A stretch of DNA of 55,048 nt from a virus (taxonomy: Duplodnaviria > Heunggongvirae > Uroviricota > Caudoviricetes): positions 1 through 55,048 of IMG/VR virus record IMGVR_UViG_2541047910_000003. The stretch is one strand, 5' to 3'. The position numbers were made by a program. Positions 45,001-48,000 of this stretch are shown here, in pieces (the stretch's first letter is position 1; each line of letters begins with the position of its first letter).

Positions 45001-48000
45001 GAAAACGAGGCGACATTCAAAAAGTTAGTTATTGATGCCGGTAGAAAATTCCTGAAACCACTCAATCCACAATACCCAATGATTGAAATCAATGGGAACT
45101 GTAAAATCATTGGCGTTGTCGTTGATGCCAAGCTAGCAAACCTTCCTTAAGGGGCTTTCGCCCCTTTTTTATTTCCCGTTAAAAATCAAAGACAAACTAA
45201 ATTCACGCCCATAGAATTAAGTTTTCTTCAAAAATGCACTTGACCAATAAATTAAGAAGTCTTAAATTTAAGCCATCAGCAGGACGCTGGAAGCCAAACG
45301 GAACAGATTGGCAGGCTCTTTAACATCGACGGACTCTCAACCTAACCGTTGAGACCAGAACTTGAGTGGTTTTGGGGATGGCGCGAATTGCAGCTGCAAG
45401 ACAGCGATCGAGAAGATAAGCACCTCGACGCGTCATGCGCCAAAGCCACTTAAAGGAGATCATCATGGTAACCATTGTCTGGAAAGAATCCAAAGGTACG
45501 GCAAAAAGCCGCTACAAAGCTCGCAGAGCAGAACTTATTGCCGAGCGACGCAGTAATGAAGCACTGGCGCGAAAAATTGCGCTAAAGCTCTCTGGTTGCG
45601 TCAAAGCAGACAAAGCAGCATCACTAGGAATCCTTTGCTGCAAGAAGAAAGAAGAAGTCGTTCGAAAAAATAGAAGTATTTATTACAAAGATTCAAACCC
45701 ATTAGGAAACAAAATACATGCAGTCCAAAAAATAAAATTGTACAGTAAACTACCGTACGGTGCTTATTGAGTATGCTTATGGTGAAAAAGACTATTTATG
45801 TTAATCCTGACCGCGGACAAAACAGAAAAGTATCTGATAGAGGTCTTACATCTCGAGACAGGAGGAGAATAGCGAGATGGGAAAAGAGGATAGCATATGC
45901 ATTAAAAAACGGTGTAACACCTGGATTTAATGCTATAGATGACGGTCCTGAATATAAGATTAATGAAGACCCAATGGATAAAGTTGACAAAGCATTAGCA
46001 ACACCATTTCCTCGCGATGTCGAAAAAATTGAAGATGAAAAATATGAGGATGTAATGCACAGAGTTGTTAATCACGCTCACCAACGAAATCCAAATAAAA
46101 AATGGTCATAGCCCACTTCGGTGGGTTTTTTATTGTCTGAACAAATCTAATTTACTACCGCAAGCCACGCAGTGAAATGGGTGTGACTTGTGTTGGTCGC
46201 CAGAAAATGAAATTAGGCAGCAAACCACTTATTTGAGGTGAGATATGGAAGAACAAGCAAACAAGATTCTCGTATAACTACTGCAAAAAGCCAGTAATGG
46301 AATAGACGCGGCTGTTTCATTCAGCCAGGCACAGATTCCTGATGTTGTTCATCAGTTGCTAATATGGAGTTTTGTCCATAGCGCACTTTTCCAAGTGGCT
46401 GGGTTGTTGCTTTTAATTGCAGCAATGAAACTTCCTGGTTTTGCAAGAACGGCAAGAAATAATGGCGAGAGATGGACGTCTTTAGATGGATGTCCAAATG
46501 ATAGATATTTTATATCTTCGTTTTATTACGATATATGCACCGTATTTGCTCCTATATATTGCTCAATTATTGGCGTTTTAATTATCGCCTTCAATTTCGA
46601 ATGGTTGAAGATTTGGCTTGCACCTAAGTTATTCCTAATTGAATATGCAGCATCATTGGTTAAGTAATTTCAGGCCGCATAGTCGGCCTTTATTTTTGGC
46701 ATAAACAACAGAATAAACACTGCACTGTGTATTCATTCCAACGAGTGAATACACGGAGCAATGTCGCTCGTAACTAAACAGGAGCCGACTTGTTCTGATT
46801 ATTGGAAATCTTCTTTGCCCTCCAGTGTGAGGGCCTTTTTATATGCATACCAATAACGCTTCACTCGAGGCGTTTTCGTTATGCAATCAAACAGAAGGAG
46901 CATCCTATGCAACAGTTCGCTATTGCAGGGGCGGCATCGGTTCGCCCTTTCAACCCGATTTTATCGGTGCAGCATTCACGAAAGAATATTTTAACCGGAG
47001 CAGACTTTAAACAACCAAGAATGAAAAGTTTGCTCGAAAAGCTTTGGGATATTTTGAAACAACAAGGCCGCCCATGAGTTTTACAGATAACTGGTCAGAC
47101 GAAGAGTTCATTCGTCAGATGAACAAAATGCTCAATCAGCACAAAGAACAGGAGAAAGATGATGATTCTGACTCTGAATGATAAGCGTGAAATATCGCAA
47201 ATAATCTCAAGTTTTACTGATGAAGATTACGAACGAATCAACAGTGAAGTTGATCGCCTCTGCAAACGTTGCGACCCAATAAGCGAAATGCTTCGCTCAT
47301 ATAAACCAGATGAACACACTAAGGACGCTATCGACTGGCTGGAAGATGATGACTGTAACTATCAGGAAAAAGCCGCTGAATGGTTCTGGGATGCAATAAC
47401 CGAAAGAGTTAAGGCTGAATATGCCTTCGCAATATTCAAACGCAGACACATTTTTGGAGAAGCAGCATGAGCAATATCGTTGAATTCGTTAAACAGCAAG
47501 AGCAGTTATTCTGCGGAGCATTGACTGAACAGACGGTGACATGGGCTAAGGAAAGCCAGTTTGCAATTCAGTATTTCCAGAAAAATGATTACCTGGCTAA
47601 AACGGCACTGGCAAATCCAACCAGCGCACAGAACGCCATCATCAATGTTGCGGCGATCGGCATCACCTTAAACCCGGCCAGCAAACTTGCTTATCTAGTT
47701 CCGCGCGACGGCATGGTTTGCCTTGATATCAGTTATATGGGATTGCTCCATATTGCAATGGAGTCTGGTGTTATCTCATGGGGTCAGGCAAAACTTGTTC
47801 ATGCTAACGATACCTATGAGTCAAACGGGCTTGATAAAGCACCAACCCATAAATACAACGCCTTCGGTGATCGTGGTGATATCGTTGGCGTTTACTGCAC
47901 AGTTAAGACGCCAGCAGGTGATTATCTAACGGAAGAGATGAGTCTGGCTGAAATTGAGGCTGTAAGGAAAACAAGCAAGGCAGCATTCAGCGATAAAGGA

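What the first reader, a model, noticed from the sequence alone, without database searches (positions are those of the whole stretch)
45767..46667. Accessory genes in the ral/sieB slot of the PL operon, including a small two-TM membrane protein
Between the N-like gene and cIII, where lambda and P22 carry ral and sieB (host-modulation and exclusion genes), this prophage has a 114-aa unknown protein, a terminator, and a 103-aa protein with two hydrophobic segments. The slot is a known location for lysogen-expressed exclusion functions and the proteins are unrecognisable to me.
Basis: partly seen in the sequence, partly recalled or inferred. Interest (0 to 1): 0.5.

Follow-up and report, generated by a model that had tools for sequence, protein, structure and literature searches.

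The report
Known Nun gene plus broken membrane-protein gene
The "unknown" 114-aa protein is the well-studied phage HK022 Nun factor, which lets a lysogen block phage lambda, and the 103-aa "two-TM protein" is the leftover of a 140-aa phage gene disabled by a stop codon, so the finding is ordinary.

Summary
The ORFs, the terminator and the two hydrophobic segments are there, but both gene models are wrong and neither protein is unrecognisable.

- **ORF 45767-46111 is nun.** From ATG 45779 or GTG 45782 it is 108/109 residues identical to HK022 Nun (PDB 6ALG). The RNA-binding ARM and the C-terminal arrest residues are intact.
- **nun sits in a cassette.** The cassette is 126 bp of upstream sequence shared with HK022, nun itself, and an intrinsic terminator. 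It interrupts a phage-21-type N gene. The result is a chimeric 101-aa N and an orphan N 3' end at 46150-46236.
- **The arrangement is already deposited.** The same N-nun module occurs in mEpX1, mEp235, Kapi1, PA28 and Stx1a phages. nun is found in 221 of 5,426 complete E. coli genomes.
- **The prophage should be insensitive to its own Nun.** Its nutL and nutR boxB hairpins are phage-21 type. Nun should therefore exclude lambda-type phages only.
- **ORF 46356-46667 is a gene fragment.** It is the tail of a 140-codon gene (46245-46667) of the Sf6 gene-34 / PHROG 3054 family. Codon 11 is TAA here and GAA in every intact relative checked. No ribosome-binding site precedes the internal starts, so this copy is most likely a pseudogene.
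- **The family's function is unknown.** It is large, with nearly invariant termini and a hypervariable transmembrane hairpin.
- **ral and sieB are absent.**

Novelty: already known. Interest: low.

The parts
45335..45354 (+). nutL boxB hairpin of phage-21 type (TCTCAAC-CTAACC-GTTGAGA), with boxA GCTCTTTA at 45315-45322. Context: it explains why the resident phage should be insensitive to its own Nun.
   Evidence: Sequence. Corresponds to the annotated boxA-L and nutL stem-loop of phage 21 (L007 966-973 and 986-1005). Folds as a 7-bp hairpin. nutR boxB TTCACCTCTAACCGGGTGAG lies on the minus strand near 44205-44186. No lambda-type boxB occurs in the early region.
45465..45770 (+). N antiterminator gene, 101 aa, chimeric. 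Roughly the first 74 codons are phage-21 N. The last 27 codons or so come from the segment that HK022 carries upstream of nun.
   Evidence: Translations. Window 45100-45687 is 96.8% identical to phage 21, and 45653-46128 is 96.8% identical to HK022. PHROG 271, E 3e-30.
45653..45778 (+). 126-bp segment shared with HK022 immediately upstream of nun. Here it encodes the N C-terminus. In HK022 it is the region where the constitutive nun promoters were mapped. That promoter location comes from my own knowledge of King et al. 2000 and could not be checked here.
   Evidence: 3 mismatches in 126 bp against HK022; the homology starts abruptly at 45653. The reference is listed. The consensus promoter scan found no site here.
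45779..46111 (+). nun, the HK022-type transcription-arrest and exclusion factor. 110 codons from ATG 45779, or 109 from GTG 45782.
   Evidence: 108/109 identical to PDB 6ALG chain N, E 2e-71. 26/26 identical to the ARM peptide of PDB 1HJI. PHROG 5632 'Nun-like transcription termination factor', E 2e-69. Translation.
46110..46135 (+). Intrinsic terminator of the nun cassette (AGCCCAC-TTCG-GTGGGTT followed by a T-run).
   Evidence: Terminator scan. Fold of -11 kcal/mol. HK022 has the same hairpin with compensatory changes, CCCGC/GCGGG versus CCCAC/GTGGG.
46150..46236 (+). Orphan 3' end of a phage-21/CUS-3-type N gene (IYYRKPRSEMGVTCVGRQKMKLGSKPLI*), left behind by insertion of the nun cassette. 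Non-coding remnant.
   Evidence: Translation, compared with phage 21 N. blastn to phage 21 L007 1329-1435 (96.3%) and to CUS-3 L004 1375-1492 (94.1%). Alignment.
46245..46667 (+). Sf6 gene-34 / CUS-3 ECRS218_0047 homologue (PHROG 3054). 140 codons, two TM segments. Pseudogene through a nonsense codon at position 11.
   Evidence: Translation. 97.5% DNA identity to CUS-3 and 95.9% to Sf6. PHROG 3054, E 7e-52, full length. The 21 closest cluster representatives read are all 140 aa with E11.
46275..46277 (+). In-frame TAA. This codon is GAA (Glu11) in CUS-3, Sf6, E. coli SC418 and all intact relatives checked.
   Evidence: The same TAA is present in a separate IMG/VR contig, L008, which has 1 mismatch in 9,202 bp to the window. 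No match in genome contigs.
46356..46667 (+). It is the residual reading frame of the pseudogene: TM1, loop, TM2 and C-tail, without the conserved 37-aa N-terminal domain.
   Evidence: No Shine-Dalgarno-like sequence lies before TTG 46356, GTG 46395 or ATG 46425 (sequence). JGI called only a 90-aa ORF from the GTG in the near-identical contig (P0033).
46672..46697 (+). Intrinsic terminator after the gene-34 homologue. It is followed by the conserved boundary / tL2-like region, 46703-46900.
   Evidence: Homology to the Sf6 bsq4/tL2A region, to phage 21 L007 1694-1858 and to HK022.
46907..47077 (+). cIII, which bounds the slot on the right (context).
   Evidence: PHROG 550 'CIII', E 1e-22. Sequence.

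Best explanation
The interval holds two things.

**1. A nun cassette.** It consists of an upstream segment, the nun gene and a terminator, all of HK022 type, and it sits inside a phage-21-type N gene of a P22-like E. coli prophage.
- In the lysogen, Nun is made constitutively from promoters in the roughly 126 bp upstream of the gene. The transcript stops at the hairpin at 46110-46135. This step is inferred from HK022.
- The Nun arginine-rich motif binds lambda-type boxB RNA on the nascent transcripts of a superinfecting lambda-like phage and competes with that phage's N protein. The Nun C-terminal segment (H98, R102, K106, K107, W108, S109) then wedges into the RNA polymerase cleft and arrests translocation. 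The invader's early genes are not expressed. This is the established HK022 mechanism.
- The resident phage should escape because its nutL and nutR boxB hairpins are phage-21 type. Its chimeric N lets PL transcripts read through the nun terminator after induction.

**2. A dead copy of an Sf6 gene-34-family inner-membrane protein gene.** A G-to-T change turns codon 11 (GAA) into TAA. The 103-aa ORF is the untranslated remainder and most likely has no function.

ral and sieB are not present.
For: **Identity of Nun.** 108/109 residues match PDB 6ALG. The ARM is 26/26 identical to PDB 1HJI. All C-terminal residues named as functional in PMC5386594 are present. The protein matches PHROG 5632.

**Cassette structure.** The blastn mosaic is phage 21 / HK022 / phage 21-CUS-3 / CUS-3-Sf6. 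The upstream 126 bp differ from HK022 at 3 positions, and the terminator stem shows compensatory substitutions. The hairpin is predicted. The orphan N tail is shown.

**Same module elsewhere.** It occurs in mEpX1, mEp235, Kapi1, PDP110P1 and PA28/Stx1a phages, in some records already annotated as Nun. nun is present in 221 of 5,426 E. coli genomes.

**Self-immunity.** Both boxB hairpins are phage-21 type. No lambda-type boxB occurs in the early region.

**Pseudogene.**
- There is an in-frame TAA after a strong ribosome-binding site and ATG.
- The codon is GAA in CUS-3, Sf6 and SC418.
- All 21 nearest relatives read are 140 aa with E11.
- The N-terminal 37 residues lost by truncation are the most conserved part of the family.
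- Two further substitutions are unique to the window, F104Y and G105C.
- The same allele appears in a second assembly.
Against: - Nun expression and lambda exclusion were not tested and cannot be tested here.
- The promoter scan found no consensus sigma-70 site in 45653-45778. The paper that mapped PNun could not be read.
- This Nun differs from HK022 Nun at one residue, S11R, outside the ARM. The effect is unknown.
- That Nun ignores phage-21 boxB is taken from my memory of the classical literature and was not tested.
- The TAA could be a shared assembly or sequencing artefact if the IMG/VR contig and the window derive from the same data.
- Low-level reinitiation downstream of the TAA cannot be excluded by sequence alone.
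Confidence: 0.88

Rival explanations
1. The 103-aa ORF (46356-46667) is a genuine, expressed, N-terminally shortened two-TM protein that acts as an exclusion or abortive-infection factor.
For: The frame stays open for 103 codons and keeps both hydrophobic segments and the conserved C-tail. The slot does host accessory and exclusion genes in other phages.
Against: - The start would be TTG with no ribosome-binding site.
- The 111 bp upstream are the homologous 5' end of the same gene, with its own ribosome-binding site and ATG and an in-frame TAA.
- The nearly invariant N-terminal domain would be missing.
- No other truncated allele of this kind appears among 478 clusters. The only one is the near-identical contig, P0033.
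- No promoter-like site was found, and the ORF lies downstream of the nun terminator.
Confidence: 0.05
2. The TAA at 46275 is a sequencing or assembly error, or a very recent laboratory mutation. The prophage really carries an intact, functional gene-34-family membrane protein expressed early from PL.
For: It is a single-base difference from GAA. The rest of the gene is 97.5% identical to intact CUS-3. The allele is absent from 185,579 species-representative genomes, and no allele more than 97.4% identical occurs in 5,426 E. coli genomes.
Against: The identical TAA is present in a separately deposited IMG/VR contig that differs from the window at one base in 9.2 kb. Two additional substitutions unique to the window fall at otherwise fixed positions, FG to YC. 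That fits relaxed constraint.
Confidence: 0.06
3. In N+nun phages, Nun is not primarily an anti-lambda exclusion factor. It modulates the phage's own N-dependent transcription, for example by damping PL expression, since it is co-transcribed with N and is always linked to the swapped N C-terminus.
For: nun is always found fused behind the chimeric N in this module. Both proteins act on the same RNA polymerase-Nus complex (PMC5386594).
Against: The ARM is identical to that of HK022 Nun, which is specific for lambda boxB. The resident boxB hairpins have a different stem and loop. The linkage with the N C-terminus is explained by the promoter-bearing upstream segment travelling with nun, since HK022 keeps that segment without any N.
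Confidence: 0.06

Closest known systems
Phage HK022 Nun (PDB 6ALG, PDB 1HJI; HK022_47)
   Same: 108/109 amino acids. The ARM, H98, R102, K106, K107, W108 and S109 are identical. The 126 bp upstream and the terminator hairpin are the same. It occupies the same position, just downstream of cI/PL.
   Different: One substitution, S11R. HK022 has no N gene, uses put RNA, and has an IS903 just downstream. Here nun is embedded in a functional-looking phage-21-type N gene, in a P22-like prophage next to proA and tRNA-Thr.
N-nun module of phages mEpX1, mEp235, vB_EcoP_Kapi1, PDP110P1, PA28/Stx1a phages and E. coli SC418
   Same: The same chimeric N, nun, terminator and orphan N 3' end, at 98-100% identity (93% in PA28). 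Some records already annotate it as Nun or Nun-like.
   Different: What follows the module differs. mEpX1 has small ORFs. SC418 has an 84-aa ORF plus a different, intact 149-aa gene-34 allele. The window has the Sf6/CUS-3 allele with a stop codon.
Shigella phage Sf6 gene 34 protein / CUS-3 ECRS218_0047 (PHROG 3054, function unknown)
   Same: 96-97.5% DNA identity over the whole gene and its downstream terminator and boundary sequence. Same ribosome-binding site, same length of 140 codons, same two TM segments.
   Different: Codon 11 is TAA instead of GAA, plus F104Y and G105C. In Sf6 and CUS-3 the gene follows ral. Here ral is missing and the gene follows the orphan N end.
   Same: Same genomic neighbourhood, between N and cIII.
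   Different: There is no sequence relationship (hhalign probability 0.2% against lambda SieB). sieB is transcribed against PL, whereas both ORFs here run with PL. In Salmonella phage Oslo, sieB and a gene-34 homologue coexist, so one does not replace the other. The ral segment of CUS-3 and phage 21 is simply absent.

Membership tests
HK022 Nun transcription-arrest factor | Full-length sequence identity to HK022 Nun | tested here: met
   108/109 identical to 6ALG chain N, E 2.3e-71. PHROG 5632, E 2e-69.
HK022 Nun transcription-arrest factor | N-terminal arginine-rich motif that binds lambda boxB RNA (residues about 20-44) | tested here: met
   DRGLTSRDRRRIARWEKRIAYALKNG is 26/26 identical to the peptide in PDB 1HJI. 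Its role is described in PMC5386594. RNA binding itself was not tested.
HK022 Nun transcription-arrest factor | C-terminal arrest determinants (H98, R102, K106, K107, W108, S109 carboxylate) | tested here: met
   The C-terminus ...HAHQRNPNKKWS is identical to HK022. The residues are named in PMC5386594.
HK022 Nun transcription-arrest factor | Constitutive expression in the repressed prophage from its own promoter(s), with a terminator just downstream | tested here: inconclusive
   The terminator is present and structurally conserved. The upstream 126 bp are 97.6% identical to HK022. No consensus promoter was detected by the scan, and the mapping paper was not readable.
HK022 Nun transcription-arrest factor | Exclusion of lambda (lambda-nut phages) by the lysogen, but not of the resident phage type | not testable with these tools
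   Only indirect evidence: the resident nutL and nutR boxB are phage-21 type, and no lambda-type boxB occurs in the early region.
Sf6 gene-34 family (PHROG 3054) | End-to-end similarity: conserved N-tail, two TM segments, conserved C-tail WLKIWLAPKLxLIEYAASLVK | tested here: met
   PHROG 3054, E 7e-52 over residues 1-140. Alignments. Hydropathy.
Sf6 gene-34 family (PHROG 3054) | Intact reading frame of 115-185 codons | tested here: not met
   TAA at codon 11. The relatives are intact.
SieB (lambda/P22 superinfection exclusion B) | Sequence homology to SieB | tested here: not met
   hhalign of the family alignment against lambda SieB: probability 0.2%, 8 aligned columns. No SieB PHROG or PADLOC hit.
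SieB (lambda/P22 superinfection exclusion B) | Gene oriented against PL, so that PL transcripts are antisense to it | tested here: not met
   Lambda sieB is on the + strand and N on the - strand, and Oslo sieB is opposite to N. Both window ORFs are co-oriented with N.
Ral (restriction alleviation) | Presence of a ral homologue between N and cIII | tested here: not met
   The CUS-3 ral segment, L004 1493-1800, has no counterpart in the window.
Known anti-phage defence systems (PADLOC-DB 2.0) | Match to any defence-protein model | tested here: not met
   No hits at E <= 1 for Nun or for two gene-34 alleles. Nun is evidently not modelled in that library.

The most novel reading that the evidence does not exclude
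The Sf6 gene-34 family, to which the broken ORF belongs, could be an unrecognised class of phage-encoded inner-membrane exclusion or lysis-modulating proteins.

- It is very large: 3,470 clusters at 50% identity.
- It has no Pfam, NCBIfam or PADLOC model.
- The cytoplasm- or periplasm-facing termini are nearly invariant, while the TM1-loop-TM2 hairpin is hypervariable.
- It recurs in two accessory-gene slots: right after N, and next to the lysis cassette.

The window's copy would then be a recently inactivated member. This rests on family-level patterns only. No function has been shown.
Probability: 0.2. Interest if true: 0.45.

Novelty: already known. Interest (0 to 1): 0.13.

Why it matters
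It matters little as a discovery. nun is a textbook exclusion gene, and the N-nun module is already in deposited phage genomes.

It is useful for annotation.
- RefSeq calls nun "hypothetical protein" or "transcriptional regulator" in most of the 221 E. coli genomes that carry it.
- The 103-aa ORF should be flagged as a pseudogene fragment rather than a candidate defence protein.

Two side points have modest value.
- HK022 itself retains an N 3' remnant upstream of nun. That suggests nun travelled as a promoter-gene-terminator cassette from an N-bearing ancestor.
- The gene-34 family is a large, uncharacterised membrane-protein family with a striking conserved-ends, variable-core pattern.

Tried and rejected
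- **Family libraries.** Pfam, NCBIfam and PADLOC scans of Nun and of two gene-34 alleles gave nothing meaningful. Pfam on ten longer family members gave only sub-threshold noise.
- **Structure-based searches for gene 34.** A profile search against PDB sequences gave no hit. The AlphaFold2 model (pLDDT 76) shows three helices. Foldseek against BFVD and PDB gave only uncharacterised phage proteins or non-specific helical hairpins, all with E > 1e-3. No functional inference was drawn from these.
- **SieB.** hhalign against lambda SieB was negative.
- **RNA families.** An Rfam scan of 44900-47300 found nothing.
- **Search for the TAA allele.** An exact-match search in species-representative genomes gave 0 hits.
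- **Literature.** King et al. 2000, which mapped the nun promoters, is not held, so PNun could not be placed on the sequence. Searches for Sf6 gene 34 and for Nun in the mEp phages found no functional study.
- **Topology.** The positive-inside rule is ambiguous: K+R averages 2.1 in the N-tail plus 3.0 in the C-tail, against 4.6 in the loop. Topology is left open.
- The closest intact relative, P0001, was used instead.
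Full report
**Setting**

The window carries a P22-like E. coli prophage integrated next to proA and tRNA-Thr.

Its immunity region is phage-21 type:
- cII at 43822-44118 (-)
- cro at 44234-44419 (-)
- a LexA-like repressor at 44500-45150 (+), followed by a terminator
- a PL-like promoter at 45240-45268
- boxA at 45315-45322
- a nutL boxB hairpin at 45335-45354

N is at 45465-45770 and cIII at 46907-47077. The finding therefore does lie in the N-cIII slot of the PL operon.

**First ORF**

The mechanical ORF 45767-46111 starts at a TTG that overlaps the N stop codon.

From ATG 45779 it reads MVKKTIYVNPDRGQNRKVSDRGLTSRDRRRIARWEKRIAYALKNG...HAHQRNPNKKWS.
- This is 108/109 identical to HK022 Nun as deposited in PDB 6ALG (E 2e-71).
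- It is 26/26 identical to the Nun ARM peptide of PDB 1HJI.
- It hits PHROG 5632 'Nun-like transcription termination factor' at E 2e-69.
- The only difference from HK022 is S11R, outside the ARM.
- All C-terminal residues reported as important for arrest are present: H98, R102, K106/K107, W108 and the S109 carboxylate (PMC5386594).

The protein is thus not unknown. It is one of the best characterised prophage exclusion factors. Nun binds lambda boxB RNA through its ARM and competes with lambda N. Its C-terminal segment crosslinks RNA polymerase to the nucleic-acid scaffold so that translocation stops.

**Terminator and cassette**

A hairpin plus T-run follows nun at 46110-46135. HK022 has the same hairpin with compensatory stem changes, which argues that the structure is maintained.

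Homology to HK022 begins abruptly at 45653, 126 bp upstream of nun, with 3 mismatches.
- In HK022, which has no N gene, this segment is non-coding.
- From my own knowledge of King, Madsen & Weisberg 2000 (listed; not readable), it contains the constitutive promoters PNun and PNun'.
- In the window the same segment supplies the last 27 codons or so of N.

The consensus scan did not pick up a promoter there. Lysogenic expression is therefore inferred, not shown.

**Mosaic structure**

| Window coordinates | Matches | Identity | Content |
|---|---|---|---|
| 45100-45687 | phage 21 | 96.8% | repressor end, OL/PL, nutL, N codons 1 to about 74 |
| 45653-46128 | HK022 | 96.8% | N' 3' end, nun, terminator |
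| 46150-46256 | phage 21 / CUS-3 | 96.3% / 94.1% | N 3' end and the 20 bp after it |
| 46236-46840 | CUS-3 / Sf6 | 97.5% / 95.9% | gene 34, its terminator, boundary sequence |

Segment 46150-46236 translates to IYYRKPRSEMGVTCVGRQKMKLGSKPLI*. That is the C-terminus of phage 21 N with two differences.

The nun cassette therefore sits inside an N gene at the 'IYY' codons. It gives a chimeric but full-length N and leaves an orphan N tail.

The whole module (chimeric N, nun, terminator, orphan tail) is found at 98-100% identity in mEpX1, mEp235, Kapi1, PDP110P1 and E. coli SC418. It is found at 93% in PA28 and the Stx1a phages, with nun intact there too. Several records already call it Nun. nun occurs in 29 phage records and in 221 of 5,426 complete E. 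coli genomes.

ral is absent. The CUS-3 segment L004 1493-1800 has no counterpart in the window. The short sequence AGGTGAkATATGGAAGAA occurs at the N end in CUS-3 and phage 21 and again before gene 34 in CUS-3 and Sf6, which marks the junction.

**Self-compatibility**

Both resident boxB hairpins have phage-21-type stems and a CUAACC loop: nutL TCTCAACCTAACCGTTGAGA and nutR TTCACCTCTAACCGGGTGAG.

A search for lambda boxB (GCCCTGAARAAGGGC, up to 2 mismatches) finds nothing in the early region.

Nun specificity resides in ARM-boxB recognition. The resident phage should therefore be spared and lambda-type invaders blocked. That HK022 Nun ignores phage-21 nut sites is my recollection of Robert et al. 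1987 and was not tested here.

**Second ORF**

ORF 46356-46667 begins at a TTG with no ribosome-binding site.

Upstream in the same frame lie a strong GAGGTGA site and ATG 46245.

Evidence that this is a single disrupted gene:
- CUS-3, Sf6 and E. coli SC418 have GAA at that codon and intact genes of 140, 140 and 149 codons.
- With Glu restored, the protein matches PHROG 3054 (unknown function) end to end at E 7e-52.
- All 21 nearest 90%-cluster representatives read (89-96% identity) are 140 aa with E11.
- The window also has two private substitutions, F104Y and G105C, at positions fixed in all of those relatives.
- The identical TAA allele is found once elsewhere, in IMG/VR contig UViG_3300029058_000191. 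That contig differs from the window by 1 base in 9,202. JGI called only a 90-aa ORF there.
- The allele is absent from the species-representative genomes. The best E. coli complete-genome match to the gene is 97.4%.

The truncated frame would lack the N-terminal 37 residues, which are among the most conserved in the family. I conclude that it is a recent pseudogene. An assembly error and low-level reinitiation remain minor alternatives.

**The gene-34 family**

Size and annotation:
- It has 478 clusters at 90% identity across Escherichia, Salmonella, Citrobacter, Klebsiella, Enterobacter, Cronobacter, Serratia and Kluyvera. All are 'hypothetical'.
- It has 3,470 clusters at 50% identity at E <= 1e-3. 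The 150 best listed are 70-184 aa, most of them 120-170 aa and matched end to end.
- No Pfam, NCBIfam, PADLOC or PDB relative was found.

Sequence pattern:
- Two hydrophobic segments lie at residues 38-61 and 96-117.
- AlphaFold2 gives three helices at moderate confidence. Fold searches were uninformative.
- The N-tail (1-37) and C-tail (118-140) are nearly invariant, at 0.41 and 0.31 bits of entropy.
- The distal part of TM1, the loop and TM2 are hypervariable, at 2.3-2.7 bits. Loops range from about 7 to about 80 residues.
- Charge counts do not settle the topology.

Genomic context:
- Directly after N in HF4s and in a Cronobacter prophage.
- After ral in Sf6 and CUS-3.
- After N and an oppositely oriented sieB in Salmonella phage Oslo.
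- Beside the lysis cassette, upstream of terminase, in Serratia and Kluyvera prophages.
- Upstream of the lysis cassette in a non-lambdoid phage contig (L017).
- In a non-lambdoid Klebsiella phage.

It thus behaves as a mobile accessory gene that co-exists with sieB and is unrelated to it. An exclusion or lysis-related role is a reasonable guess for the family, but nothing here demonstrates it. In this window the gene is broken, lies downstream of the nun terminator, and has no promoter-like site of its own.

**Verdict**

It is wrong in substance, because that gene is the known nun and the 'two-TM protein' is a pseudogene fragment.

Novelty: already known. Interest: low.

Noticed in passing
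window 45653-45778; L006 (HK022) 1383-1508: HK022, which has no N gene, still carries 126 bp of an N-gene 3' end directly upstream of nun. In the window this segment encodes ...VVRKNRSIYYKDSNPLGNKIHAVQKIKLYSKLPYGAY*. This suggests nun spread as a cassette from an N-bearing ancestor, and that HK022 lost the N 5' part rather than nun 'replacing' N.
   Followed up: partly
window 46150-46236: Orphan C-terminal coding remnant of phage-21-type N (IYYRKPRSEMGVTCVGRQKMKLGSKPLI*). It is retained in all N-nun phages examined. Its stop codon overlaps the ribosome-binding site of the next gene.
   Followed up: yes
window 46236-46256; L004 (CUS-3) 1472-1492 and 1801-1821: A repeat of about 18-21 bp, AGGTGAkATATGGAAGAA (ribosome-binding site plus the first codons MEE), precedes both the ORF after N and gene 34 in CUS-3, Sf6 and phage 21. 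It coincides with the junction where ral is missing in the window, so it is a likely recombination boundary.
   Followed up: partly
L012 (HK633, JQ086377) 1510-1875: HK633 carries an intact 121-aa gene-34 allele that the GenBank record does not annotate as such. The record instead has two other ORF calls overlapping the region.
   Followed up: yes
L016 6001-6381 (Serratia odorifera), L020 5001-5426 (Kluyvera), L017 5001-5405: Gene-34 homologues also sit next to lysis cassettes, upstream of terminase, and not only after N. The family occupies at least two accessory-gene slots.
   Followed up: partly
window 46703-46741 and 46733-46900; L006 1870-1908 and 2966-3133: The two HK022 segments flanking its IS903 match overlapping window coordinates. 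The 9-bp overlap, 46733-46741, fits an IS903 target duplication. The window shows the uninterrupted ancestral sequence.
   Followed up: partly
window 1-3000: The left end of the window holds another integrase, a MarR-family regulator and a phage baseplate gene, according to E. coli annotations at 99.4% identity. This is a second mobile element adjacent to the P22-like prophage.
   Followed up: no
window 47159-47470: A 103-aa ORF between kil and recT matches PHROG 3486 (unknown function) at E 1e-58. It is conserved in mEpX1 and in Shigella and E. coli prophages.
   Followed up: no
E. coli RefSeq records, e.g. L003 2124-2462: PGAP annotates nun as 'transcriptional regulator' or 'hypothetical protein' in E. 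coli genomes. No NCBIfam or Pfam model exists for Nun.
   Followed up: partly
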